The notes beneath the pieces were generated by a model. The model had not been told where the DNA came from. It did not search any database and saw only the letters and a list, made by a program, of their open reading frames with translations. Below, one piece after another: positions 1-9,839 of a stretch of DNA of 32,000 nt (position 1 is the stretch's first letter; the number at the start of each line of letters is the position of its first letter). The translations under genes were made by a program, and so were the position numbers. The DNA is from Synechococcus sp. A15-28 (GTDB taxonomy: Bacteria; Cyanobacteriota; Cyanobacteriia; PCC-6307; Cyanobiaceae): the NCBI RefSeq assembly GCF_014280175.1, contig NZ_CP047931.1:420001-452000 (forward strand), written 5' to 3'.

Positions 1-1544
1 TGGACCAGTCCGCCGGAGACCTGTCCATCGGCCTTGGGCAGGCCGGGCCGGAGAGCTTCCGGCGCATGTTGCAGGAGGCGCTGCGGGATCAGACGGACTG
101 TCTGGTGGTGGTGAAGGTGCACCCGGATGTGATCCGGGGCCGCGCCCGGGGCCATTTCCGCCGTCAGGATCTGCAGCACCCGCGCATCCGCCTCTGCGCT
201 GACGGATTGCACCCTGCCGCCCTGTTAGAGCAGGCCCAGGCGGTGTATGTGGTGACCTCCCAGATGGGGTTTGAGGCGCTGTTGTGGGGACGGACCGTCC
301 ACTGCTTCGGCATGCCTTTTTATGCCGGGTGGGGACTCACCGTGGATCGTTTGCCGGCTCCGGCCCGTCGGGGAGCGTCGGTGCCGTTGGCGGCGGTGGT
401 GCATGCGGCGCTGGTGGAGGGCACCCGCTGCGTGGACCCCCATCGGCATCAACCCTGTCAGATCGAGACGCTGATGGACGCCATCGGCCTGCAACGTCGG
501 CAGCAGGGGGCGGATCCCCTGCGGGTGCAGGCCTTTGGCTTCACTCCATGGAAGCAACGCAGCCTCAAGCGCTTTCTGGCCGGCAGTGAGCTGCGCTTTC
601 GCCTGCCGCGGGCGCTGCCGGGGCCGCGGGCGGAGGCCGTGGCGGTGTGGGGCCGGCGGGCTCGACCGCGTCTGCTGGCGACGGCGCGCCGTCGGGGGCT
701 GCCGCTGCTGCATGTGGAGGACGGTTTCCTGCGCTCGGTGGGCCTGGGGGCCGATCTGATCGACCCCATCTCCTGGGTGGTGGACCGCCGCGGCATGTAT
801 TACGACGCCACGGAGGCCAGCGATCTGGAGCAGCGGCTGGCCACAGGAATCTGGAGTGAGCCGCAGTTGCAGCGGGCCGAGGCCTTGCGCCAGCAGCTGG
901 TGGCGCAGGCCATCACCAAATACAACCTCCCAGGGGGCGGATGGCAGCGCCCCGACGCTGCCAGGCGGGTGGTGCTGGTGGTGGGGCAGGTGGAAAGCGA
1001 CGCTTCCATCCGCTATGGCGCTCCGGGGCACTCCAGCAACCTGGCACTGCTGCAGGCGGTGCGTGCGGCGGAACCGGAAGCGTTCCTGGTGTACAAACCC
1101 CATCCCGACGTGGTGGCGGGTCTCTGCCGCTCCGGTGATGGGGAGCAGCGGGCGGCCCAGGTATGCGACTGCTTGCTGCGCGATGGCTCGATCCATGCCC
1201 TGTTTGAGCAGGTGGATGCCCTGCATGTGCTCACCTCCCTGGCAGGGTTTGAGGCGCTGTTGCGGGGAGTGGAGGTGCATTGCTGGGGACTGCCCTTTTA
1301 TGCGGGTTGGGGGCTGACCCAGGATCGGTTGTCCTCGCCCCGGCGGGGCCGGTCGCTGCCTTTGGCGGCGTTGGTGCATGCCGCCTTGATTGATTACCCC
1401 CGCTACGTCAGCCGCCGCAGCGGTTGGTTCATCACTCCAGAGCAAGCCATTGAGGAGCTAGTGGCATGGCGGGATGCACCTCCAGCCCGCCGCACCCTGG
1501 TGCAGGCCCTGTTCCGACACTGGGGGCGTCTGTTCAATCGTTAG
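1..1544 (+). CDS. kpsC: KpsC-like capsule polysaccharide biosynthesis protein (beta-Kdo transferase family), 5'-partial. It shows the end of one Capsule_synth domain plus a complete second one.
   Basis: The frame is open from the window edge (codons in phase from nt 3), so the ATG at 66 is internal. Two copies of the family signature are present: 'VKVHPDV...TSQMGFEALLWGRTVHCFGMPFYAGWGLTVDR' and 'YKPHPDV...TSLAGFEALLRGVEVHCWGLPFYAGWGLTQDR'. A 'VLVVGQVESDASIRYG' motif is also present. These match my memory of KpsC/KpsS (Pfam Capsule_synth). Confidence 0.8.
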   Translation, partial: DQSAGDLSIGLGQAGPESFRRMLQEALRDQTDCLVVVKVHPDVIRGRARGHFRRQDLQHPRIRLCADGLHPAALLEQAQAVYVVTSQMGFEALLWGRTVHCFGMPFYAGWGLTVDRLPAPARRGASVPLAAVVHAALVEGTRCVDPHRHQPCQIETLMDAIGLQRRQQGADPLRVQAFGFTPWKQRSLKRFLAGSELRFRLPRALPGPRAEAVAVWGRRARPRLLATARRRGLPLLHVEDGFLRSVGLGADLIDPISWVVDRRGMYYDATEASDLEQRLATGIWSEPQLQRAEALRQQLVAQAITKYNLPGGGWQRPDAARRVVLVVGQVESDASIRYGAPGHSSNLALLQAVRAAEPEAFLVYKPHPDVVAGLCRSGDGEQRAAQVCDCLLRDGSIHALFEQVDALHVLTSLAGFEALLRGVEVHCWGLPFYAGWGLTQDRLSSPRRGRSLPLAALVHAALIDYPRYVSRRSGWFITPEQAIEELVAWRDAPPARRTLVQALFRHWGRLFNR

Positions 1545-2924
1545 ATGTTGTACTTAGTGCGACTATTTATAACGAATTTTTATAGGGTCTATTAGTTAGT
1601 TGATCGTCGACAAGGTTTTCTTCTTCTGCTTGTGGTGCTCTTTTGTTGTGAATTGTTGGCGTCGGGGTGTCTCGCGTCATTCAGATTTGCGGAAATGTCT
1701 GTCAATGTTGCTGCTTTAGGCGTGGCGAATGGCTAGAGGGGATATGCATCGAGATTGTTTAGTTGGTGCCAGAGAAATTTCTTTCAAGGAATCTGCGGAA
1801 TAATTTCCACTCTTCTTCTGTGAAAAAGGTGTGGCATTTGATGGCAAGATCAAGGCCACGTTCATTTAGTCTGGGGTTTGGGTTTTTGTTGCTGATTTTG
1901 AGTCTTGGGTCAGTGGATAGATTTTTGGCTTGTTCTGGTAACATTGCATTAAGTAAGTTCCTAAAATACTGTTGTGGCTGTTGGTTATTGCTTACAAGCT
2001 CGTATTCGAGTTGAATGATTTCTATCGATCTATGCGAAATAGTTTTCTCGGACAACCTATCGTTGATTTTGCTCAAGGATGACATTAGTGTGATCTTTTC
2101 TGCAAAGGAAAAGTCTCTCGTTTCGAGGAAGCTGTTCAGGCTTGCCGATGAGGGAAGATGATTGCCTTCCTTGACGTATTGATTGTGGCATGATCGAATA
2201 AATTCATCCTCGTTGCGTGTGATAAATATTATTTGCCACTGGATTGAAGCACTTTTGAGGGAGTTTTCCAGTACTTGCATGAGCCGCCTGGTTCTAGTTT
2301 CTGCGTACCGATAGAGTCCCTTTGTGTCCTCTCCATTTTCCTTGGAAGGAAGACTGATGTCAGGGTTGTGGAAAAGCCCGAAATGAAGTGTTCCAAAAAT
2401 AGCTTCGCATGATATTAAAATGGTATCTATCATTTCTTCATTGCCTTCGCATAGCTTATTGAGAATTTTCCGTGTGTTTTTTTGTAATTCTCGCGGTACC
2501 CTGTCACTTCCAGTATCTATGTGTTGCCATAGCTCGACCAAGTCGAATTTAAGGGTTCTTGGACCTATGTAAAGGACTCTATTTTCTTGTAAAATATTGC
2601 GGTTTTTTCTGCAGTTCAGTTGAAAGTAACTGGTGCCGGTTTTGTGTAAACCGCAATGGAGTACAATTCGACTGGGCTTGAGTTTGCTCAAGGGAATGAT
2701 TGACTTTCAGGGTGTGATTTTGGCTCGGTGAGAGCTGAGGCTTTTATTGGTAGTGAGTTTGATGAAGGGGCGTTCCGGGAGAGTTTGGATTGCCGCGTAT
2801 TGGCAGTGAAATAAAAGTCAATATTGTAGTTAATAGATTCAAAATATATATTTTGTGTTTTGAATGTGTCAAGATTGAAATAGTTTCAAGTAACGGCTTG
2901 GCCACGAGACGGGCACCGGCGCTG
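1545..2924. other. AT-rich islet inside the capsule locus, with visibly lower GC than both flanks. It carries one reverse-strand gene.
   Basis: Composition changes abruptly right after the kpsC stop (1544). It returns to high GC at about 2890-2925, where the KpsS-homologous frame begins. A/T runs and A/T-ending codons dominate in between. Confidence 0.75.
1759..2691 (-). CDS. Sulfotransferase-like protein (PAPS-dependent fold), probably acquired horizontally
   Basis: A 310-aa ORF in the low-GC islet. The N-terminal 'IVLHCGLHKTGTSYFQ' resembles the 5'-phosphosulfate-binding loop (PKxGTT type). 'IFITRNEDEFIRSCHNQY' resembles the 3'-phosphate-binding motif (RxP/xxRxxSxY type). The assignment is by motif only. 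Confidence 0.5.
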   Translation of the reverse strand: MSKLKPSRIVLHCGLHKTGTSYFQLNCRKNRNILQENRVLYIGPRTLKFDLVELWQHIDTGSDRVPRELQKNTRKILNKLCEGNEEMIDTILISCEAIFGTLHFGLFHNPDISLPSKENGEDTKGLYRYAETRTRRLMQVLENSLKSASIQWQIIFITRNEDEFIRSCHNQYVKEGNHLPSSASLNSFLETRDFSFAEKITLMSSLSKINDRLSEKTISHRSIEIIQLEYELVSNNQQPQQYFRNLLNAMLPEQAKNLSTDPRLKISNKNPNPRLNERGLDLAIKCHTFFTEEEWKLFRRFLERNFSGTN

Positions 2925-4910
2925 GTGCAGGTGCGCATCGAAGGACCGGTTCTGCTGCTGATGGGCCCGATCGGGCTGTTCTTTGCCCGTTTTAGCCGCT
3001 ACCTGCGGGGCTGCGGCATCCCGGTCACCAAGGTGCGTTTCCCGCTGCGGGAATTTGGCTTTCCGGCTGATGTTTGTGTGCCGTTCCGGGAGCCGATGGA
3101 GGCCTGGCGGCCCTTTCTGCGCCAGCTGCTGCAGGAGCGGGGCATCCGCCACATCTTTATGTATGGGGACTTCATCATTCCCCACCGGATTGCGATTGAA
3201 GAGGCCCAGGCCCTTGGGATTGAGGCCTGGGTGTTCGAGCTGGGTTACCTGCGGCCCAATTACGTGACCCTGGAGCGGGACCGGGTCAATGCTCGTTCCA
3301 ACCTCAACCAACCCGCGGTCTTCTATCGCCAGCTGCCGCCGGTGGATCAGTTGCCGCGAGACATCGTGCTGGACTCGGGTTGGCGTTGGCGCAAGGCCTG
3401 GAAGGCCCCCACCTTTATCCAGCACGCCTTCACCCGTTACCCGATCATCGAGGGGGAGCACAAACTGCAACCCACCCCTGGTTTTCTCTGGTGCCAGCTG
3501 CGCGGCAGCTGGCGCTACTGGCTGTACCGCTGGCAGGAGCGGAATCTGAAGCGGCGGCTGCTGGAGCACCTCTCGTTTTTCTTGGCGGTGCTGCAGGTCT
3601 CCAGTGATTCGCAGATCCAGCTGGGCTCGCCCTACCGCGGTATGCACGACTTCATTGAGGACGTGATCCGGTCTTTTGCGGCCCATGCCCACAGCTCCGA
3701 TCATCTGGCCTTCAAACACCATCCGCGGGACCGGGGCTACAACCACTACGGAAGCCTGATCGCTGTGCTGGCAGGGCGTTACGGCGTCAGTGGCCGGGTG
3801 CACTACTTCCACGACGGCCCCCTCAGCCGCTACCTGCGCACCTGCCGCGGGGTGATCACGGTGAACAGCACGGTGGGCCTTCAAGCCCTGTTCCATGCAG
3901 TGCCCACCAAAACCATGGGCAACACCTTCTACAACCTGGACGGACTGACGGACCAGAAGCCTCTGGATGATTTCTGGCGGGACCCCCAGCCCAGTGATCG
4001 GCCGCTGTTCTGGCGCTTCTATCACCACCTGGTGATGACCACTCAGGTGAATGGCAATTTCGACGGGGACTTCCCCTTCCGCATCACCTTCCCGATTGGC
4101 CAAGGGGCTCGCCAGCTGGATCCGCAGCCGCAGCTGCCGCCGCTTCGGCCACGGCCACGGATGAACTCCCTGCTGGTGCCGGCCCGGGTGCTAGCCCGCC
4201 TGGGTTGGGCCGCCGTGGGGTTTGTCTTGTACGGCCTGCAGTTGCCTGCGGTGCTGTTGCGGCGTGCGGACTTGGCGGCGCAACTGATGACCTGGGCCTC
4301 AGCTGTGGCCTTGCGGGCGCTTGGGGTGCAGGTGGTGGTGGATGACAGTCAGCCCAGCGAGCCGGCCGGGATGCCCCTGGTGCACATCTTCAACCACCGC
4401 AGCCCCTGTGATGGCCTGGTGATTCAAGGGGTGCTGCGCCTGCCGGGCATGACCACGGCTCAGTTGCATCTGAAATGGGTGTTGCCCGGATACGCGGCCG
4501 CAGCCCGCAACGCCGGGTCGGCCGTGTTGGATCACCGTCAGCCCAGTTCGCGCCTGGAAGGGATGATGCGGGCCTCCGCGTTGTTGCGCGACCACGGTCA
4601 GATCATGCTGGCCCCCAACGGCTCATTGGTGACGCCGATCGAAGAGCGGGTGTCCCCCAGCGCCTGGATGCTGGCTCAGCACTACGACGGTTGTGTGGTG
4701 CCCTGGCTGTTTCGCTATGACGGACTGGATGAGGCTGTGGGTGCCCGATACCGCCCCCTGGCGCTGCTGTTGAGCCGGTTGACGGCGCCGTTGGGAACGA
4801 TTCACTGCCGCCGGGGCCGGTCCCAGGATCTGGTTCTGCCAAAGGATCCCCGTGATCGGGAGGGGTTCAGCCGTGCTGTGCGGGCGTATTACCAGCAAGC
4901 ACAAGACTGA
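2925..4910 (+). CDS. kpsS: KpsS-like Kdo transferase fused in frame to a C-terminal PlsC/LPLAT-type acyltransferase domain
   Basis: The N-terminal ~390 aa carry KpsS-type motifs: 'VLLLMGPIGLFFARF', 'LQVSSDSQIQLGSPY', 'LAFKHHPRDRG' and 'VITVNSTVGLQALFH'. A Pro-rich linker (QPQLPPLRPRPR) and a hydrophobic segment (LLVPARVLARLGWAAVGFVLYGLQLPAVLL) follow. Acyltransferase motifs then appear: 'FNHRSPCDG' (HX4D block, nt 4392-4412), 'ARNAGSAVLDHR', 'LAPNGSL' and 'VVPWLF'. The track start at 2790 lies in AT-rich non-homologous sequence. I prefer GTG 2925 or 2931, but the start is uncertain. Confidence 0.7.
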   Translation: MQVRIEGPVLLLMGPIGLFFARFSRYLRGCGIPVTKVRFPLREFGFPADVCVPFREPMEAWRPFLRQLLQERGIRHIFMYGDFIIPHRIAIEEAQALGIEAWVFELGYLRPNYVTLERDRVNARSNLNQPAVFYRQLPPVDQLPRDIVLDSGWRWRKAWKAPTFIQHAFTRYPIIEGEHKLQPTPGFLWCQLRGSWRYWLYRWQERNLKRRLLEHLSFFLAVLQVSSDSQIQLGSPYRGMHDFIEDVIRSFAAHAHSSDHLAFKHHPRDRGYNHYGSLIAVLAGRYGVSGRVHYFHDGPLSRYLRTCRGVITVNSTVGLQALFHAVPTKTMGNTFYNLDGLTDQKPLDDFWRDPQPSDRPLFWRFYHHLVMTTQVNGNFDGDFPFRITFPIGQGARQLDPQPQLPPLRPRPRMNSLLVPARVLARLGWAAVGFVLYGLQLPAVLLRRADLAAQLMTWASAVALRALGVQVVVDDSQPSEPAGMPLVHIFNHRSPCDGLVIQGVLRLPGMTTAQLHLKWVLPGYAAAARNAGSAVLDHRQPSSRLEGMMRASALLRDHGQIMLAPNGSLVTPIEERVSPSAWMLAQHYDGCVVPWLFRYDGLDEAVGARYRPLALLLSRLTAPLGTIHCRRGRSQDLVLPKDPRDREGFSRAVRAYYQQAQD

Positions 4911-6132
4911 TGTTGTGACCGCCGAATCCGAAGGCATTCTTGAGCAGCAGACGTTGGCCTTGATCTGAAGAAAGCTGCACAGGGCCCTGTTTGGTGACGG
5001 CCAGCTCCACCTCAGGATCCAGGGGGTCGGCATTTAGGCTGCCGGGCAATACGCCATGGCGCAGGGCCTGCAGGGCCAGGATGGTTTCCACCGCACCGGC
5101 GCCCCCCAGTAGGTGGCCCAGCTGGCCCTTGGGGGCGTAAACCGGCAGATGATCGGCAGCACTGCCAAGGCTGCGCCGCAATGCTCTGGCCTCCGCCAGG
5201 TCACCGAGGCTGGTGCCGGTGGCATGGGCCTGAACACCGCAGAGGTCTGAGGGGTTCACCTTCGCCCGACGCAAGGCCTCGTCGATGGCACGGCTGGCCT
5301 GCAGCCCCTGGGGCTCGGGGGCGACGATGTGGTGGGCATCGCTGCTGCTGCCACTGGCCAGCAACCAGCCCAGGTCGGCCCCTGGAGGCGTGTCCTGTTG
5401 CCGCATCAAGGCCAGGACGCCGGCGCCTTCGGAGAGCACGAAGCCATCTCGACCGAGGCCGTAGGGCCGGGAGGCTTGATCAGGAGCGTCGTTGCGGCTG
5501 GACAGGGCGCGCATGGCTGCAAAGCCCACCAGCCCAAGTCGGTTCACCGGAGCTTCGCTGCCCCCGGCCAGCACCAGATCGGCGCGGTCGTCGTTGAGCA
5601 GCATCTGGCCCAGCATCAATGCTTCGGCGCCGGAGGCGCAGGCGGACACCGGGGTGTGGGCACCGCCGAGCAGACCGAGCTCAATGGCCACCTGGCCAGC
5701 GGCGGCATCGGGGATCAGCATCGGCACGGTGAGGGGGTTCACCCGGCTTGGTCCCCCCGTGCTGAGTTGCGTGTGTTGCTCGTGCATGGTGGCGAGGCCG
5801 CCGATGCCCGTGCCGATCACCACGGCGATGCGGCTTGGATCCAGGCCGGTGGTGATGGAGCTGGCCATGGTCCAGGCCTCCCGTGCGGCCACCAGGGCGA
5901 GCTGGGCGCAGCGATCGGAGCGGCGGCGGAGCAGGGGCGGCAGGCTGTTGAGGGCCCCCGTTGGGACGCAACCGGCCAGACGCACGGGCAGATCCTCGGT
6001 CCAGGGCGTCTGAAGGGTTTGAATGCCACTGCGGCCGGCGATCACCGCGTCCCAGGTGCTGTTGGCATCGGCCCCCAGCGGGTTGAGGGAACCCCACCCC
6101 ACCACTGCTGTTGGTTCAGCTTTGAGAGCCAT
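4867..6132 (-). CDS. Beta-ketoacyl-ACP synthase II-type condensing enzyme (FabF/FabB-like paralogue)
   Basis: Signatures include 'VVGWGSLNPLG', the active-site Cys context 'PVSACASGAEAL', the His contexts 'QAHATGTSLGD' and 'KGQLGHLLGGAG', and the C-terminal 'NAFGFGGHNISLVL'. I chose ATG 6132 (MALKAEP...), which overlaps the ACP stop by 17 nt. The track start at 6180 is less likely. Confidence 0.8.
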   Translation of the reverse strand: MALKAEPTAVVGWGSLNPLGADANSTWDAVIAGRSGIQTLQTPWTEDLPVRLAGCVPTGALNSLPPLLRRRSDRCAQLALVAAREAWTMASSITTGLDPSRIAVVIGTGIGGLATMHEQHTQLSTGGPSRVNPLTVPMLIPDAAAGQVAIELGLLGGAHTPVSACASGAEALMLGQMLLNDDRADLVLAGGSEAPVNRLGLVGFAAMRALSSRNDAPDQASRPYGLGRDGFVLSEGAGVLALMRQQDTPPGADLGWLLASGSSSDAHHIVAPEPQGLQASRAIDEALRRAKVNPSDLCGVQAHATGTSLGDLAEARALRRSLGSAADHLPVYAPKGQLGHLLGGAGAVETILALQALRHGVLPGSLNADPLDPEVELAVTKQGPVQLSSDQGQRLLLKNAFGFGGHNISLVLAGNTPAQHG

Positions 6133-6397
6133 CGCTCTGGCGGAGACTGGGGGATTCCAGGTGCTGCTGGATGTCCGCAACCGTGCGGAACCGGAGTAGT
6201 TCCTCTTCCTTGATCCGGATGCCGAAGTTGGTGTCTGCCTCGATCAGGATTTCGTAGAACCCAAGGGAGTCAATCCCCACGTCCTCCATCAGCCGGGCAT
6301 CAGGGGTGATCACGGCTGGATCGGCGCCGGAGATGCGGTGCAGCATCTCGATCAGCCGTCCCTGCAGCTCTTGCTTGTCAGGGCAGCTCTCACCCAA
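6116..6397 (-). CDS. Acyl carrier protein (dedicated, non-housekeeping)
   Basis: 93 aa with the phosphopantetheine attachment context 'EDVGIDSLGFYEIL'. It lies between the N-acyltransferase and the KAS genes. The only in-frame start upstream of helix I is TTG at 6397. Confidence 0.7.
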   Translation of the reverse strand: MGESCPDKQELQGRLIEMLHRISGADPAVITPDARLMEDVGIDSLGFYEILIEADTNFGIRIKEEELLRFRTVADIQQHLESPSLRQSDGSQS

Positions 6398-6442: not shown

Positions 6443-7354
6443 TTACTCGTCACCTCGGTACCAGCTGAAGCGTTGGTAGACGGGCTGGTGGGGCAGGTCG
6501 ATGAACAGGGCGAGCCGTTCTGGCGGCAACCGCCGCAGGTCGGCGGCCATCAGGATTTCAGTGATCTGGTTGAAGTCCAGGGCAAGGGACAGATCACAGA
6601 CTTCCGAGTGCATCAAGTTGAAGTACTGACGCAGCAGCACCGGTAATCGGAAATCGTCGGAGAGGGTCTGGCGGATCTCCTGCTCGAGGGCCTGGATGTG
6701 GCCGCTGGGATGGGGGGTGTCATCGGCGTGAATGCCTGGGAAGGGATGGCGTGGGGCCGGTAAGGGGGTGTTAAGGCGCCGGTAGGGCGGACGCAGCAGG
6801 GCGCTGAGGAAGGCGGCGTTCACCGCATCGCTGTAGGCGAAGTGGTTGTAGGAGACCAACCCGTGCAGCAGCTGGTAGCCGCTGCGGGCAGCGATCAACA
6901 GACCGCCGCGGAACAGGGCCATCAACGAATGGGGCTGCCGTTGGAAGCGTTCCGCCAGGGCGACCCTGCCGATCTCGAGATGGTTGGTGCGACTGGCCAG
7001 GTCCGCCTTGATGCCGGGGTAGACGTGTTCGAGGTAGGAGCCATCGCTGCCAGGCAAGGAGCTGGCACCGGCGGGGATGAATTGCAACCGGGCCGATCCG
7101 GCGAGGTCTCCACTGCTGCGTTCCACCAACAGAAGATGGTCGTAATGGGGATCGCGTCCGTCGAGGTCGCGCTCGTCACCGGACCCGCTCAGTTGCTTGC
7201 GATAAGTCGATTCTCGCAACCGTCCCACCGCGTCTGCCACCGGATCAAAGGCGGCCCCTGCGATCAGATGCAGGTCCAGGTCATCGATCGCCAGAAGTCG
7301 CGTGTCCGACGCCTCGGCCACAGCAGAGGGAATGGACGGACCAGACAGCGTCAT
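6443..7354 (-). CDS. GNAT-superfamily N-acyltransferase of the OlsB / N-acyl amino acid synthase ('putative hemolysin', Acetyltransf_5) type
   Basis: 'VGRLRESTYRKQL...DLDGRDPHYDHLLLVERSSGDLAGSARLQF' and 'LEIGRVALAERFQRQPHSLMALFRGGLLIAARSGYQLLHGLVS' match the OlsB-like pattern as I remember it (RLRyxVF...D.D.fD...HLlv.d...G..RL, then E.gR...). The ~300 aa length is typical for the family. Confidence 0.6.
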   Translation of the reverse strand: MTLSGPSIPSAVAEASDTRLLAIDDLDLHLIAGAAFDPVADAVGRLRESTYRKQLSGSGDERDLDGRDPHYDHLLLVERSSGDLAGSARLQFIPAGASSLPGSDGSYLEHVYPGIKADLASRTNHLEIGRVALAERFQRQPHSLMALFRGGLLIAARSGYQLLHGLVSYNHFAYSDAVNAAFLSALLRPPYRRLNTPLPAPRHPFPGIHADDTPHPSGHIQALEQEIRQTLSDDFRLPVLLRQYFNLMHSEVCDLSLALDFNQITEILMAADLRRLPPERLALFIDLPHQPVYQRFSWYRGDE

Positions 7355-7430
7355 TCGTGTTCCAATCTGTCTCAGCCAGCCGGCAGATTAGACCGACTCG
7401 TTCGAGCTTTCGTCGCTTCTCACTGCCTTG

Positions 7431-8519
7431 ATGCCTTTCCCTTCACGCCCTGCTGCTCTGGTCTGCACCCGGCTGATCGCGGGTCTGGCTGCCGCAGCAA
7501 CCCTGGCGGTTGTCCCGATCGCGGCATCGGCGGACTTACTGACTCGGGCCAGCGGGACCTCCAGCCTGAATCGGGAGGCCTTTCGCTATCGACTGGGTCC
7601 CGGGGACAGCCTGGCGATGTCGGTGTTCAAGATGGATGGCTACGAGGCCAAGGTGGAGGTGCTCAGTGACGGCACCATCAACCTGCCTCGCATCGGCACG
7701 ATCGAGGTTTGGGGGCTCACGCTCGAGGAGGCACGCCAGCGCATTACCGCGGCCTATGAGGTGTTCCTACGCCGGCCGATTGTTTATCTCGACTTGGTTA
7801 GTTCACGGCCGGTGAAGGTGACGGTCACCGGAGAGGTGGAGCGCCCCGGCGTGTTCAGCCTGCCGACCCAGGCAGAGGGGGGCTGGCCGACGCTGGTGGA
7901 TGTGGTGCAGAAGGCCGGCGGCGTCAGCGCCAGCGGTGATCTCTCCAGAATTGAGGTCTTGCGTCCCTCGGCCCGCCCCGAAGGCTCGATGCGTCGCTAT
8001 CAGTTTGATTACCTCACCGTGTTGCGTGAGGGGGGGCATGCCCCCAATCCGCTGATCTACGACGGCGACAGCATTCGCTTGTACCAGAGCGAAAGCGCTG
8101 ACAATGCTGATCTGATCACCACAGCGGCCTCCAACTTCGCCCCCGACACGATTCGTGTGAATGTGATCGGTGAGGTGGCCAAACCGGGCATTCAGCAGGT
8201 GCCCTCCAATGCCCCGCTGTCCCAGGCGATCTTTGCGTCGGGTGGAATCACCCGCCGCGGCAGCATCAGCACCGTGGAACTCGTCCGGGTGGATGGCGAC
8301 GGGGAACCGACGGTGAGGGTGATGAGCTTTGACCCCAGCGCTGTGTTGAGCAGCTCCACCAATCCCCCATTACGTCAGAACGATGTGATTGTTGTGAACC
8401 GCTCCGCTCTGGCCAAGGTGACCGATGGGTTGACCGACGCCTTCTCACCGTTGACGCCGATTGTGAACGCCGCCTCGATCTTCCGGATCCTCGGTTTGCC
8501 CACGGGATTGGGCAACTGA
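7431..8519 (+). CDS. Outer-membrane polysaccharide export protein (Wza/KpsD, OPX family)
   Basis: It has an N-terminal signal-like segment (AALVCTRLIAGLAAAATLAVVPIAASA). The Poly_export signature 'YRLGPGDSLAMSVF...VLSDGTINLPRIGTIEVWGLTLEEARQRI' is present, with SLBB-like repeats ('VKVTVTGEVERPGVF', 'IRVNVIGEVAKPGIQ'). ATG 7431 is preferred over TTG 7428. Confidence 0.8.
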   Translation: MPFPSRPAALVCTRLIAGLAAAATLAVVPIAASADLLTRASGTSSLNREAFRYRLGPGDSLAMSVFKMDGYEAKVEVLSDGTINLPRIGTIEVWGLTLEEARQRITAAYEVFLRRPIVYLDLVSSRPVKVTVTGEVERPGVFSLPTQAEGGWPTLVDVVQKAGGVSASGDLSRIEVLRPSARPEGSMRRYQFDYLTVLREGGHAPNPLIYDGDSIRLYQSESADNADLITTAASNFAPDTIRVNVIGEVAKPGIQQVPSNAPLSQAIFASGGITRRGSISTVELVRVDGDGEPTVRVMSFDPSAVLSSSTNPPLRQNDVIVVNRSALAKVTDGLTDAFSPLTPIVNAASIFRILGLPTGLGN

Positions 8520-8543
8520 GGATCGAAAGGTGCTGGTCGGGTG

Positions 8544-9839
8544 TTAAATCCCCAGACGCTCCCAGATCACTCCGAGGTTGGCCTGGTGCAGTTCGGTGCT
8601 GAAGCACTCTGCCAACTGCTCAGCTGAAAGCTTGCTGGTGACGTCCGCATCAGCCTCAAGATTGGCGCGGAAGTTGCCGCCGTCAGTGTTCCAGGCAGTG
8701 TGAGCTTTGCGCTGCACGATCCGGTAGGCCTCCTCTCGGCTCATGCCAGTGTCCACTAGCGCCAGCAGCACCCGCTGGCTGAACACCACGCCGCCATACA
8801 CGTTCATGTTGCGGCGCATGTTGTCGGGGTAAACCCCCAGACCCTTCACCACGCTTGTCATCTCCCGCAGCATGAAGTGAAGGGCCACTGAGCAATCGGG
8901 CAGCATCATCCGTTCGGTGGAACTGTGGCTGATGTCGCGCTCATGCCAGAGGGCAACGTTTTCCAGTGCTGCCACCACGTAGCTGCGCAGCACCCGGGCC
9001 AGGCCGCTGATCCGTTCGCTGCGAATCGGGTTGCGCTTGTGGGGCATGGCCGAGCTGCCCTTCTGGCCCTTGGCGAAGTTCTCTTCCACCTCGAGCACAT
9101 CGGTGCGCTGCAGGTTGCGGATCTCCGTGGCGAATCGGTCGAGGGAGGCGCCCACCAGGGCCAGGGTCTGCACGTAATCGGCGTGGCGATCGCGGGAGAT
9201 CACCTGGGTGCTGGCGGTGTCAGGCGTGAGGCCAAGGATTTCGCAGGTGATGGTTTCCACCTGGGGGTCGGTGTTGGCGTAGGTGCCCATGGCCCCACTG
9301 ATCTGACCGACGGCCACGTCCTGCTCCAGTCGCGCCAGGCGGCTGCGGTTGCGTTCGGTTTCCGCCAGCCAGCCGGCGATCTTGAAGCCGAAGGTGATCG
9401 GCTCGCCATGGATGGCATGGGAGCGGCCGATCATTTCCGTGCTCTTGTGCTCACGGGCGAGGCTGCGCAGGGCATCGGCCAGGGCATCCAGCTCTTGGCG
9501 CAGCAGGACCACGGAGCGCTTCAGTTGCAACGCCAGGCCGGTATCCAGCACATCGCTGCTGGTCATGCCCACATGGATGTGACGGCCGGCATCGCCAACG
9601 TGTTCGTTGACGTTGGTTAGAAAGGCGATCACGTCGTGACGCACCTCGGCTTCGATTTCGAGGATGCGTTCCACCTCGAAGCTGGCTTTGGCCTTGATCG
9701 TGTCCAGGCTCTCCTGGGGCACGCGGCCGAGGCGGCAGTTGGCTTCTGTGGCGGCGATTTCCACATCCAGCCAACTCTGAAACTTCGCCTGCTCACTCCA
9801 GACGGCACCCATTACGGGCAGGGTGTAACGCTCGATCAC
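8544..9839 (-). CDS. purB: Adenylosuccinate lyase
   Basis: '(V/M)IERYTLPVMGAVWSEQAKF', 'GMTSSDVLDT' and 'GSSAMPHKRNP' are classic PurB/fumarate-lyase signatures. GTG 9839 gives the canonical MIERY N-terminus. The track's TTG at 9860 is probably too long. Confidence 0.95.
   Translation of the reverse strand: MIERYTLPVMGAVWSEQAKFQSWLDVEIAATEANCRLGRVPQESLDTIKAKASFEVERILEIEAEVRHDVIAFLTNVNEHVGDAGRHIHVGMTSSDVLDTGLALQLKRSVVLLRQELDALADALRSLAREHKSTEMIGRSHAIHGEPITFGFKIAGWLAETERNRSRLARLEQDVAVGQISGAMGTYANTDPQVETITCEILGLTPDTASTQVISRDRHADYVQTLALVGASLDRFATEIRNLQRTDVLEVEENFAKGQKGSSAMPHKRNPIRSERISGLARVLRSYVVAALENVALWHERDISHSSTERMMLPDCSVALHFMLREMTSVVKGLGVYPDNMRRNMNVYGGVVFSQRVLLALVDTGMSREEAYRIVQRKAHTAWNTDGGNFRANLEADADVTSKLSAEQLAECFSTELHQANLGVIWERLGI

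What the first reader, a model, noticed from the sequence alone, without database searches (positions are those of the whole stretch)
2925..4910. In-frame fusion of a KpsS-like Kdo transferase to a membrane-anchored PlsC/LPLAT acyltransferase domain
This is directly visible. About 390 aa of KpsS-type sequence run into a Pro-rich linker, then a hydrophobic helix, then about 200 aa carrying the acyltransferase blocks. These are NHRSPCD at nt 4392-4412, followed by 'GSAVLDHR', 'APNGS' and 'VVPW'. There is no intervening stop codon.

KpsS acts on the lipid acceptor, so a physically attached acyltransferase suggests that acylation or re-acylation of the acceptor is coupled to the first Kdo transfer. 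How the lyso-lipid terminus of group-2 capsules arises is, to my knowledge, unresolved.

One caveat: an internal ATG at 4161 (MNSLLVPARV...) could also give a separate acyltransferase product.
Basis: partly seen in the sequence, partly recalled or inferred. Interest (0 to 1): 0.7.

Follow-up and report, generated by a model that had tools for sequence, protein, structure and literature searches.

The report
Capsule Kdo-transferase fused to lipid acyltransferase
A marine Synechococcus capsule gene encodes one protein joining the enzyme that puts the first sugar on the capsule's lipid anchor to a lipid acyltransferase, a conserved but undescribed pairing that offers a way to test how the anchor's fatty acids are set.

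Summary
Window 2925-4910 (+) is one open 661-codon frame. Residues 9-379 are a KpsS-type beta-Kdo transferase. A disordered Pro-rich linker follows (about 391-416), then two long hydrophobic helices (417-465), then a PlsC/LPLAT-fold acyltransferase core with HX4D at nt 4392-4412.

It is not an assembly artefact. 116 full-length homologue clusters (49-93% identity) from marine Synechococcus, Cyanobium and freshwater picocyanobacteria share the architecture. Met413 (ATG 4161) is not conserved.

The same two proteins are separate but adjacent or overlapping genes in three other lineages, at least one of them proteobacterial. KpsS proteins linked to this acyltransferase form their own subfamily.

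Twelve fusion clusters have lost the catalytic motifs. All three examined carry an intact stand-alone copy immediately downstream. So the activity seems to be needed, and the fused domain probably also anchors KpsS.

In picocyanobacteria the gene sits beside an OlsB-like N-acyltransferase, and usually a private ACP and FabF-like synthase.

Best reading: a bifunctional enzyme coupling the first Kdo transfer to acylation of the capsule's lipid anchor. The chemistry is inferred, not shown. I found no paper describing it. I rate it a new variant of a known kind, of moderate interest.

The parts
66..1544 (+). KpsC-like two-module beta-Kdo transferase; the 5' end is cut by the window edge
   Evidence: PF05159 with 3 stretches, E=1.4e-62. 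The full-length 650-675 aa orthologue lies directly upstream of the fusion gene in about 45 loci.
1759..2691 (-). Low-GC (43%) 310-aa ORF of unknown family, inserted between kpsC and kpsS::AT. It is probably not part of the core module.
   Evidence: No match in Pfam, NCBIfam or PDB. In other loci its homologue lies about 9 kb upstream.
2925..4910 (+). The kpsS::acyltransferase fusion gene: 661 codons plus stop, with a probable GTG start
2925..4094 (+). KpsS-type beta-Kdo glycosyltransferase domain (residues 1-390)
   Evidence: NF050054 covers residues 9-379 at 277 bits, and PF05159 covers 77-379. Foldseek hits KpsC structures 6mgd, 6mgb, 6mgc and 8fux. HHPRDRG and LQVSSDSQ are present in all 116 full-length homologues.
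4095..4172 (+). Pro-rich variable linker (residues 391-416). It contains the non-conserved Met413 (ATG 4161).
   Evidence: pLDDT is below 50 for residues 402-411. Length and sequence vary, and Met413 is not conserved.
4173..4319 (+). Two long hydrophobic or amphipathic helices (417-444 and 448-465), a predicted membrane-embedding motif like the N-terminus of TmPlsC
   Evidence: Hydropathy maxima at 416-446 and 454-472, with Arg on both flanks of helix 1. Helices appear in both models. The alignment to TmPlsC 5kym spans 256-266 columns of a 232-241 residue chain.
4320..4907 (+). LPLAT/PlsC-fold acyltransferase catalytic core (residues 466-661)
   Evidence: PF01553 at 30.2 bits, above the cut-off of 23. 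The domain-only model has pLDDT 87 and pTM 0.85; its best PDB match is TmPlsC at TM 0.58-0.62.
4392..4412 (+). Block I, NHRSPCD (the HX4D catalytic dyad, His491/Asp496)
   Evidence: N490 and H491 are at least 90% conserved and D496 is invariant in alignment A1. The motif is present in 104 of 116 fusion clusters and 72 of 72 full-length stand-alone paralogues.
4611..4625 (+). Block III, APNGS (the counterpart of PlsC FPEGT; FPSGS in the divergent clade)
   Evidence: P564, G566 and S567 are at least 90% conserved and invariant in A2.
4867..6180 (-). FabF-like beta-ketoacyl-ACP synthase II, convergent with the fusion gene and overlapping its 3' end by 44 nt
   Evidence: PF00109 plus PF02801; TIGR03150 fabF at 381 bits, below its cut-off of 494. 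Syntenic in about 35 loci. Listed as fabF2 in island Syn_GI125.
6116..6397 (-). Dedicated acyl carrier protein
   Evidence: PF00550, E=2e-10. A DSL motif is visible. Syntenic.
6443..7354 (-). OlsB-like GNAT N-acyltransferase
   Evidence: PF13444, E=4.8e-11. Matches the OlsF C-terminal half (NF052615) at E=1.1e-16, 60.6 bits against a cut-off of 620. It lies next to the acyltransferase in every picocyanobacterial locus long enough to show it (the full-length and partly truncated ones; L001, L003, L011, L013, L025, L031, L036, L040 and L044-L049 end before it), and in L082.
7428..8519 (+). Outer-membrane polysaccharide export protein (Wza/KpsD-like OPX)
   Evidence: PF02563 plus SLBB domains. 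Syntenic.

Best explanation
The gene encodes one bifunctional, membrane-associated enzyme of a marine Synechococcus group-2-like (kps) capsule pathway.

The N-terminal KpsS module transfers the first beta-Kdo from CMP-Kdo onto the lipid acceptor at the cytoplasmic face of the inner membrane. The C-terminal module is a divergent LPLAT-superfamily acyltransferase. It sits in the same leaflet through a PlsC-like two-helix motif and uses an HX4D dyad to transfer a fatty acyl group onto that same anchor lipid, either before or after the Kdo is added. The donor is most likely the acyl form of the ACP encoded three genes away.

The fusion therefore does two things. It tethers KpsS to the membrane, and it channels the anchor between glycosylation and acylation, which would fix the anchor's acylation state.

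What is shown: the fusion, the two domain identities and folds, conservation of the catalytic motifs, the genetic linkage of KpsS with this acyltransferase family, and the conserved neighbourhood.

What is inferred: that the acyl acceptor is the capsule anchor, whether it is a (lyso)phosphatidylglycerol-type lipid, that the donor is acyl-ACP, the order of the steps, and the monotopic topology.
For: 1. Domains and fold. PF05159 and the KpsS model cover residues 9-379, and PF01553 is above its gathering score. The models have pLDDT 82 and 87. Foldseek matches the N-terminal half to KpsC structures and the C-terminal half to TmPlsC 5kym at TM about 0.6 over its whole length.

2. Conservation. 116 full-length fusion clusters share the architecture. 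All 116 have the KpsS motifs and 104 have HX4D plus PxGS.

3. Split forms in other lineages.
- L082 (30% GC, Prochlorococcus-like) has kpsS 7356-8588 and the acyltransferase at 8590-9348.
- L084 (a proteobacterial contig carrying a bc1 complex and SspB) has kpsS overlapping the acyltransferase.
- L085 shows the same overlap, inside a kpsF/kpsT/kpsM locus.

4. A linked KpsS subfamily. KpsS proteins linked to this acyltransferase are 45-53% identical to the window's KpsS half. KpsS from loci without the acyltransferase are 31-39% identical.

5. Dead copies are backed up. Twelve fusions have lost both motifs. In 3 of 3 examined, an intact stand-alone acyltransferase follows immediately. The activity is supplied in trans while the dead domain is kept.

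6. Neighbourhood. ACP, a FabF-like KAS and an OlsB-like acyltransferase are conserved next door.

7. Small, specialised family. Only 27 representatives score E<=1e-30 among 1.84 billion proteins, and most of those with readable context lie in kps loci.

8. Open question in the field. Current papers still write the anchor as '(lyso)phosphatidylglycerol' (PMC10148158, PMC11666461, PMC7694667).
Against: - There is no biochemical or lipid-structural data for any picocyanobacterial capsule.
- The acyltransferase is far from true PlsC: TIGR00530 scores 11 bits against a cut-off of 103. Block III lacks the Glu of FPEGT, so the acceptor need not be a glycerophospholipid.
- Inter-domain geometry is uncertain (pTM 0.53 for the full model), so channelling is not demonstrated.
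- The invariable OlsB-like neighbour in cyanobacteria hints at an N-acylated, non-PG lipid.
- E. coli, Neisseria, Psychrobacter and other KpsS systems work without any such acyltransferase, so it is an accessory function.
- Two relatives of the acyltransferase occur outside kps loci.
Confidence: 0.55

Rival explanations
1. The acyltransferase is the OlsA-like partner of the adjacent OlsB-like N-acyltransferase. Together with the private ACP and KAS they build an ornithine-lipid-type (N-acyl, then O-acyl) aminolipid. That lipid, possibly phosphorus-free, replaces bulk PG as the capsule anchor that KpsS glycosylates.
For: - The OlsB-like gene is adjacent in every picocyanobacterial locus that extends far enough (L001, L003, L011, L013, L025, L031, L036, L040 and L044-L049 end before it), and in L082. 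This holds even where KAS and ACP are absent.
- OlsF is a known fusion of the same two acyltransferase types, and the neighbour matches its C-terminal half at E=1e-16.
- A stand-alone paralogue weakly matches the OlsA model at E=0.0023.
- Synechococcus kps genes are reported as enriched in low-P and low-N waters (PMC10119275).
Against: - L084 and L085 carry kpsS-acyltransferase pairs with no OlsB-like gene in 11-14 kb, so the tightest linkage is KpsS to the acyltransferase.
- All OlsA, OlsB and OlsF scores are far below the curated cut-offs.
- KpsS needs a hydroxyl acceptor, which classical ornithine or glycine lipids lack.
- My one full-text search on the topic (OlsB, aminolipid, Synechococcus, capsule) found no paper linking these terms.
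Confidence: 0.2
2. The C-terminal domain is essentially a membrane anchor or scaffold for KpsS, and its catalysis is dispensable.
For: Twelve of 116 fusion clusters have lost HX4D and PxGS, yet keep an open 230-residue domain with the two hydrophobic helices and some conserved patches (LGVQVIVDDSQ, VPWFF).
Against: - 104 of 116 clusters keep both motifs across 49-93% divergence.
- Each dead copy examined is followed by a live stand-alone acyltransferase.
- Unfused lineages keep a catalytic acyltransferase next to kpsS.
- A two-helix anchor alone would be enough for tethering.
Confidence: 0.12
3. The acyltransferase acylates a sugar hydroxyl (the first Kdo, or another residue of the glycolipid) rather than the glycerolipid moiety. 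This would resemble mycobacterial PatA acylating the mannose of PIM.
For: PatA structures are the second-best PDB matches. LPLAT enzymes acting on glycosylated lipids are known, for example SqdA acylating lyso-SQDG from acyl-ACP (bioRxiv 10.1101/2022.08.18.504050). Block III differs from the glycerol-phosphate-binding FPEGT.
Against: The PatA matches are weak (TM 0.30-0.38, rmsd 10-13 A), while TmPlsC matches over its full length at TM about 0.6, including the N-terminal helices. No acylated Kdo linker has been reported, to my knowledge.
Confidence: 0.08
4. Two polypeptides are made: a KpsS, and a separate acyltransferase started at the internal ATG 4161. Alternatively, the fusion is a sequencing or assembly artefact.
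For: An in-frame ATG precedes the hydrophobic helices. Stand-alone acyltransferases with the same N-terminus exist elsewhere.
Against: - Met413 is replaced by E, L, S, I, V or R in homologues, and the linker has no conserved start.
- No promoter-like site lies between 3000 and 5200 on the + strand.
- There is no stop between the halves in 116 clusters from independent assemblies.
- GC3 is uniform across the gene.
Confidence: 0.04

Closest known systems
KpsS (LipB), the initiating retaining beta-Kdo transferase of E. coli, Neisseria and Campylobacter group-2 capsules (with KpsC in CAZy family GT107; the family number is from memory)
   Same: It is a single GT module of about 390 aa with near end-to-end coverage of the KpsS model. 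It keeps the conserved HHP and QVxxDxQ motifs. It lies next to a two-module KpsC and an OPX exporter. Related loci carry kpsF, CMP-Kdo synthetase and kpsM/T genes.
   Different: It scores 277 bits against the equivalog cut-off of 600. It belongs to a separate subfamily that always travels with an LPLAT acyltransferase, which here is fused to its C-terminus. Described KpsS proteins have no such domain or partner.
[quoted passage not shown]
   Same: It has the LPLAT fold, the HX4D dyad, counterparts of blocks II-IV, and an N-terminal two-helix membrane-embedding motif. The structural alignment spans the full length at TM about 0.6.
   Different: Sequence identity is only 16-18%. TIGR00530 scores 11 bits against a cut-off of 103. 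Block III reads APNGS or FPSGS instead of FPEGT. It forms a tiny, kps-linked family rather than acting as a housekeeping enzyme.
The OlsB/OlsA two-step ornithine-lipid pathway and the bifunctional OlsF
   Same: An OlsB-like GNAT N-acyltransferase and a PlsC-type O-acyltransferase are encoded side by side with an ACP. OlsF shows that such acyltransferases do get fused into bifunctional lipid synthases.
   Different: Here the PlsC-type domain is fused to a glycosyltransferase, not to the GNAT. All scores are far below the family cut-offs. Proteobacterial kpsS-acyltransferase pairs lack the GNAT.
VexE and the diacyl-HexNAc anchor of the Salmonella Typhi Vi capsule
   Same: An ABC-transporter-type capsule locus encodes its own acyltransferase-like protein dedicated to making the capsule's lipid terminus (review PMC12220298).
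   Different: Vi loci lack KpsS and KpsC, and their anchor is not Kdo-PG. From memory, VexE belongs to the LpxL-like branch. I made no sequence comparison.
SqdA, an LPLAT that acylates sulfoquinovosyl-(mono)acylglycerol from acyl-ACP
   Same: It is a precedent for a PlsC-type enzyme that completes a glycolipid by acylating a lyso-glycolipid using acyl-ACP.
   Different: It has an HX5D motif, belongs to a different pathway and taxa, and is not fused to a glycosyltransferase.

Membership tests
KpsS-type beta-Kdo transferase (Pfam PF05159 / NCBIfam NF050054) | Capsule_synth domain above the Pfam gathering score | tested here: met
   189.3 bits against a cut-off of 20, residues 77-379.
KpsS-type beta-Kdo transferase (Pfam PF05159 / NCBIfam NF050054) | Reaches the curated KpsS equivalog score | tested here: not met
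   277.3 bits against a cut-off of 600, although model positions 15-387 of 390 are covered. It is a divergent orthologue or subfamily.
KpsS-type beta-Kdo transferase (Pfam PF05159 / NCBIfam NF050054) | Conserved HP and QxxxD-type catalytic motifs of retaining beta-Kdo transferases (motif definition from memory of the KpsC/WbbB literature) | tested here: met
   HHPRDRG and LQVSSDSQ are invariant in A1 and present in 116 of 116 full-length homologues.
KpsS-type beta-Kdo transferase (Pfam PF05159 / NCBIfam NF050054) | Single GT module encoded beside a two-module KpsC and kps export and CMP-Kdo genes | tested here: met
   KpsC lies upstream and an OPX downstream in the window. KpsU-like, KpsF, KdsA and KpsM/T genes are present in related loci.
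KpsS-type beta-Kdo transferase (Pfam PF05159 / NCBIfam NF050054) | Transfers beta-Kdo from CMP-Kdo to phosphatidylglycerol | not testable with these tools
   Needs an enzyme assay.
LPLAT / PlsC-type acyltransferase superfamily (PF01553) | Domain above the Pfam gathering score | tested here: met
   30.2 bits against a cut-off of 23, residues 480-573. Stand-alone relatives score 35-44 bits.
LPLAT / PlsC-type acyltransferase superfamily (PF01553) | HX4D catalytic dyad (block I) | tested here: met
   NHRSPCD at residues 490-496. Conserved in 104 of 116 fusion clusters and 72 of 72 stand-alone copies.
LPLAT / PlsC-type acyltransferase superfamily (PF01553) | LPLAT alpha/beta fold with an N-terminal membrane-embedding helices | tested here: met
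   Foldseek to TmPlsC 5kym: E=2e-5, TM 0.58-0.62, 256-266 columns.
Bona fide PlsC (1-acyl-G3P acyltransferase, TIGR00530 / PRK15018) | Reaches the curated family score; block III is FPEGT | tested here: not met
   TIGR00530 scores 11.4 bits against a cut-off of 102.95. Block III is APNGS or FPSGS. It should not be filed as PlsC, despite the NCBI names on some homologues.
OlsA (lyso-ornithine lipid O-acyltransferase, NF052553) | Reaches the curated family score | tested here: not met
   No hit for the window domain. A stand-alone paralogue scores 17 bits against a cut-off of 300.
OlsB / OlsF N-acyltransferase (for the neighbour at 6443-7354) | PF13444 domain; curated OlsF or GlsB score | tested here: inconclusive
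   PF13444 is met (43.7 bits against 22.4). OlsF scores 60.6 against 620 and GlsB 14.7 against 300, so neither is met. It is a superfamily member with unknown substrate.

The most novel reading that the evidence does not exclude
Picocyanobacteria, and a few other lineages with the acyltransferase-linked KpsS subfamily, may not start their capsule on bulk membrane PG.

Instead, the OlsB-like N-acyltransferase, the KpsS-fused acyltransferase and the private ACP/KAS would make a dedicated anchor lipid that this KpsS subfamily has co-evolved to glycosylate. That lipid could be amide-linked and phosphorus-free, or carry an unusual fatty acid.

If so, this would be a third kind of lipid terminus for ABC-transporter capsules, after (lyso)PG-Kdo and Vi diacyl-HexNAc. 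It would occur in some of the most abundant phototrophs of phosphorus-poor oceans.
Probability: 0.2. Interest if true: 0.8.

Novelty: new variant of a known kind. Interest (0 to 1): 0.55.

Why it matters
The lipid end of group-2-type capsules anchors the polymer, is thought to be the export signal, and is bound by the KpsMT transporter (PMC11041684). Yet current papers still write it as '(lyso)PG' (PMC10148158, PMC11666461), and none of the papers I read says what sets its acylation state.

A natural KpsS-acyltransferase fusion comes with three useful comparisons: split versions, catalytically dead versions backed up in trans, and a private ACP. Together these give a concrete genetic and biochemical handle on that question.

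It also shows that the kps islands of marine Synechococcus carry a lipid-tailoring module that current annotation hides. Those islands were flagged as niche-adaptive in nutrient-poor waters (PMC7522525, PMC10119275). [quoted passage not shown]

Tried and rejected
- **Artefact or frameshift:** rejected, because the fusion is conserved in 116 clusters and about 40 genome loci.
- **Internal start at 4161:** rejected as the conserved mode. The Met is not conserved and there is no promoter-like site.
- **True transmembrane helix putting the acyltransferase in the periplasm:** judged unlikely. Arg residues flank both ends of helix 1, a second helix follows, and the TmPlsC match covers the N-terminal helices. 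This was not tested experimentally.
- **PDB sequence searches** for either half and for the OlsB-like protein found nothing useful.
- **My last homologue search,** with the proteobacterial acyltransferase P0224, gave only one relative. The spread outside cyanobacteria therefore remains poorly sampled, and the organisms behind L084 and L085 are unidentified.
- **Literature searches** found no description of the fusion. I searched combinations of KpsS with acyltransferase, PlsC and lyso-PG, then picocyanobacteria with capsule, then rkp genes, then OlsB with Synechococcus. The Willis & Whitfield 2013 papers are not held.
- **The Sinorhizobium rkp-1 precedent** (FAS/PKS-like genes beside a kpsS homologue, recalled from memory) could not be documented from the library, so I do not rely on it.
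- **The low-GC ORF 1759-2691** was not identified by any library.
Full report
**What is in the sequence**

Window 2925-4910 (+) is a single open frame of 661 codons. An upstream in-frame TTG at 2790 is possible, but GTG 2925 matches the start of several homologues.

- NHRSPCD is residues 490-496, nt 4392-4412.
- Met413 is ATG 4161.
- GSAVLDHR, APNGS and VVPW are all present.

Domain scans give the following:
- Pfam finds PF05159 (Capsule_synth) at residues 77-379, E=1.5e-55.
- Pfam finds PF01553 (Acyltransferase) at residues 480-573, 30.2 bits, above the gathering score of 23.
- The NCBIfam KpsS model is covered almost end to end (residues 9-379), but at 277 bits it is below the equivalog cut-off of 600.

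GC3 is uniform across the gene. The rest of the window carries ApcE, ATP synthase, ResB, FtsW and purB. With 63% GC, this identifies a marine Synechococcus chromosome. The closest genome locus is Synechococcus sp. AG-670-A05, at 91-93% identity.

**Structure**

An AlphaFold2 model of the whole protein was built from 32 aligned sequences and has mean pLDDT 82. It shows:
- a GT-B-like N-terminal half;
- a disordered linker (pLDDT below 50 at residues 402-411);
- two long helices, 417-444 and 448-465;
- a compact alpha/beta domain.

Foldseek against the PDB matches the N-terminal half to KpsC beta-Kdo transferase structures (6mgd, 6mgb, 6mgc, 8fux). It matches the C-terminal half to Thermotoga maritima PlsC, 5kym.

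A separate model of residues 413-661 is better (pLDDT 87, pTM 0.85). It matches 5kym over 256-266 columns with TM 0.58-0.62. The next matches are mycobacterial PatA chains, at only TM 0.30-0.38.

The PlsC alignment spans the whole PlsC chain. Helix 1 has Arg residues on both flanks. I therefore read the 'hydrophobic helix' as the PlsC-type two-helix motif lying in the cytoplasmic leaflet. That keeps both active sites in the cytoplasm, where CMP-Kdo and acyl-ACP are found. This topology is inferred.

**Is the fusion real and conserved?**

A search of 5.8 billion proteins returned 411 relatives. The best 120 include 116 full-length proteins of 628-711 aa with 49-93% identity. All 116 carry the KpsS motifs HHPRDRG and LQV(S/A)(S/T)D(S/T)Q. 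Of these, 104 carry both acyltransferase motifs, HX4D and P(N/S)GS.

A scan of one genome per species found the full-length gene only in picocyanobacteria: marine Synechococcus/Parasynechococcus, Cyanobium, and freshwater 'Prochlorococcaceae' MAGs. Outside them only the KpsS half matches, in Psychrobacter, Colwellia, Roseibium, Brevundimonas and others.

In the alignment the linker varies in length and sequence. Met413 is replaced by other residues in the homologues. No promoter-like site lies upstream of 4161. A single polypeptide is thus the conserved state. An assembly artefact is excluded.

**Neighbourhood**

tblastn of the window's proteins against 78 fetched loci shows a fixed gene order in about 40 picocyanobacterial loci:
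1. kpsC
2. kpsS::acyltransferase
3. on the opposite strand, a FabF-like KAS II, an ACP and an OlsB-like GNAT N-acyltransferase
4. a Wza/KpsD-like exporter
5. purB

Upstream, related loci carry CMP-Kdo synthetase and DUF6716 putative glycosyltransferases.

The most divergent freshwater clade (about 50% identity) keeps the OlsB-like gene directly after the fusion but lacks KAS and ACP. A weak GT1-like ORF takes their place.

Doré et al. list this island (Syn_GI125: fabF2, kpsS/lipB, kpsC/lipA, neuA). They report kps genes as enriched in low-P and low-N waters. They name kpsS only as 'capsular polysaccharide export protein' (PMC7522525, PMC10119275).

**The acyltransferase also exists unfused, and stays with kpsS**

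In some marine Synechococcus loci a stand-alone paralogue of 250-283 aa is inserted between the fusion gene and the KAS. It has its own N-terminal helices and intact motifs. I found 88 such clusters. All 72 of full length carry the motifs.

A profile of this family was searched against 1.84 billion representatives. It found only 27 proteins at E<=1e-30, so the family is small. The more distant members are informative:
- **L082:** a 30% GC contig whose member protein is named Prochlorococcus sp. SP3034. The gene order is kdsB-like, kpsF, kdsA, kpsC, then an unfused 410-aa kpsS. The acyltransferase follows 2 nt later, then an OlsB-like gene, an OPX, and kpsM/T.
- **L084:** a 41% GC contig with a cytochrome bc1 operon and SspB, hence proteobacterial. 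A 403-aa kpsS overlaps the acyltransferase gene.
- **L085:** a 36% GC MAG. It shows the same overlap, flanked by kpsF, kpsT, a large KpsC-like gene and kpsM.

KpsS proteins from these acyltransferase-linked loci are 45-53% identical to the window's KpsS half. KpsS proteins from loci without the acyltransferase are 31-39% identical.

Fusion in one clade, adjacency in others, and a co-inherited KpsS subfamily together make strong comparative evidence that the two activities act in one process. Two relatives lie outside kps loci, so the family is not exclusively capsule-linked.

**Dead domains**

Twelve of the 116 fusion clusters have lost both HX4D and P(N/S)GS. They still keep an open domain of about 230 residues with the hydrophobic helices.

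All three that I could examine in context (L040, L087, L088) are followed at once by an intact stand-alone acyltransferase.

I draw two inferences. The acyltransferase activity is required and can be supplied in trans. The fused domain has a second, non-catalytic role, most simply in anchoring or organising KpsS at the membrane.

**Mechanism I consider most likely (confidence about 0.55)**

KpsS adds the first beta-Kdo to the anchor lipid. The tethered LPLAT domain acylates that same lipid, before or after glycosylation. The donor is acyl-ACP, plausibly from the dedicated ACP/KAS pair. The fusion both tethers KpsS and couples the two steps.

It bears on why the field still writes '(lyso)phosphatidylglycerol' for the terminus (PMC10148158, PMC11666461, PMC7694667).

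None of the chemistry is shown here. The acyltransferase is not a true PlsC: TIGR00530 scores 11 bits against a cut-off of 103, and block III is APNGS or FPSGS rather than FPEGT. Its acceptor is therefore open.

**Rivals**

- **OlsB/OlsA-like aminolipid anchor (about 0.2).** It is supported by the invariable OlsB-like neighbour in cyanobacteria and by the OlsF precedent. It is weakened by the proteobacterial pairs that lack a GNAT, and by scores far below the family cut-offs.
- **Pure anchor or scaffold (about 0.12).** It is contradicted by motif conservation and by the trans-complementing copies.
- **Sugar acylation, PatA-like (about 0.08).** It rests on weak structural matches and on precedents such as SqdA.
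- **Separate translation from ATG 4161, or an artefact (about 0.04).** See above.

**Comparison with what is known, and novelty**

The N-terminal half works like KpsS and meets its structural and contextual criteria, though not the curated equivalog score.

The C-terminal half is a member of the LPLAT superfamily. It is not a member of the PlsC or OlsA families.

Dedicated acyltransferases in ABC-transporter capsule loci have a precedent in Vi antigen VexE (PMC12220298). That system lacks KpsS and KpsC.

I found no paper describing a KpsS-acyltransferase fusion or pairing. Databases do hold the architecture, under generic or misleading names.

I therefore rate it a new variant of a known kind. 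It is of moderate interest (0.55), mainly because it makes the question of anchor acylation experimentally approachable.

Noticed in passing
window 1759-2691 (-): A 310-aa ORF with 43% GC in a 63% GC genome is wedged between kpsC and kpsS::AT. In other loci those two genes are about 70-100 nt apart, and the homologue of this ORF (38-44% identity) lies about 9 kb upstream. It matches nothing in Pfam, NCBIfam or PDB. From memory only, the N-terminal GLHKTGTS resembles a sulfotransferase PAPS-binding loop.
   Followed up: partly
L040 8200-9705; L087 6001-8673; L088 864-3549: Twelve fusion clusters carry a catalytically dead acyltransferase domain. Each of the three examined is followed by a live stand-alone copy. 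Their KpsS halves are 95-99% identical to each other, but the dead domains are only 26-79% identical. In L040, the only locus measured, the dead domain and the stand-alone gene are about 41% GC against 54-59% for the flanking KpsS part and KAS gene; the stand-alone copies in L014 and L079 are also about 41% GC, beside live fused domains. This suggests a recombination boundary inside the gene, resembling a variable cassette.
   Followed up: partly
L039, L041, L042, L045 (e.g. L042 12024-14001); L082 9358-11418: The divergent freshwater clade and the Prochlorococcus-like contig lack the KAS and ACP genes. They have a 334-344 aa weak GT1-like ORF after the OlsB-like gene instead. The private ACP/KAS pair is therefore a later addition to a core of kpsC, kpsS, acyltransferase and OlsB-like genes.
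   Followed up: partly
L027, L034: These records are titled as Bradyrhizobium ivorense and Mesorhizobium carmichaelinearum MAGs, yet carry most or all of the picocyanobacterial locus at picocyanobacterial identity levels: L027 has all of it including purB at 84%, while L034 (56-73% across the locus) showed no purB hit. They are probably mis-binned or mislabelled contigs.
   Followed up: no
L086 4850-10392; L083 9001-9717: Relatives of the acyltransferase occur outside kps loci. One is in a Legionella-like contig (with U-box and Sel1 proteins), next to a Condensation-domain protein, an MFS transporter and an MMPL transporter. The other is in a 31% GC Prochlorococcus-like contig downstream of lexA. 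The family may have other lipid-tailoring roles.
   Followed up: no
window 4867-4910: The 3' ends of the fusion gene (+) and the FabF-like gene (-) overlap convergently by 44 nt. The listed FabF-like ORF also overlaps the ACP gene by 65 nt at its 5' end, so its true start is probably further downstream.
   Followed up: no
L082 8588/8590; L084 1854-1876; L085 3205-3254: In all three unfused lineages the acyltransferase gene starts in the +1 frame relative to kpsS. It either abuts kpsS or overlaps it by 23-50 nt. This suggests translational coupling and a simple one-step route between the split and fused states.
   Followed up: no
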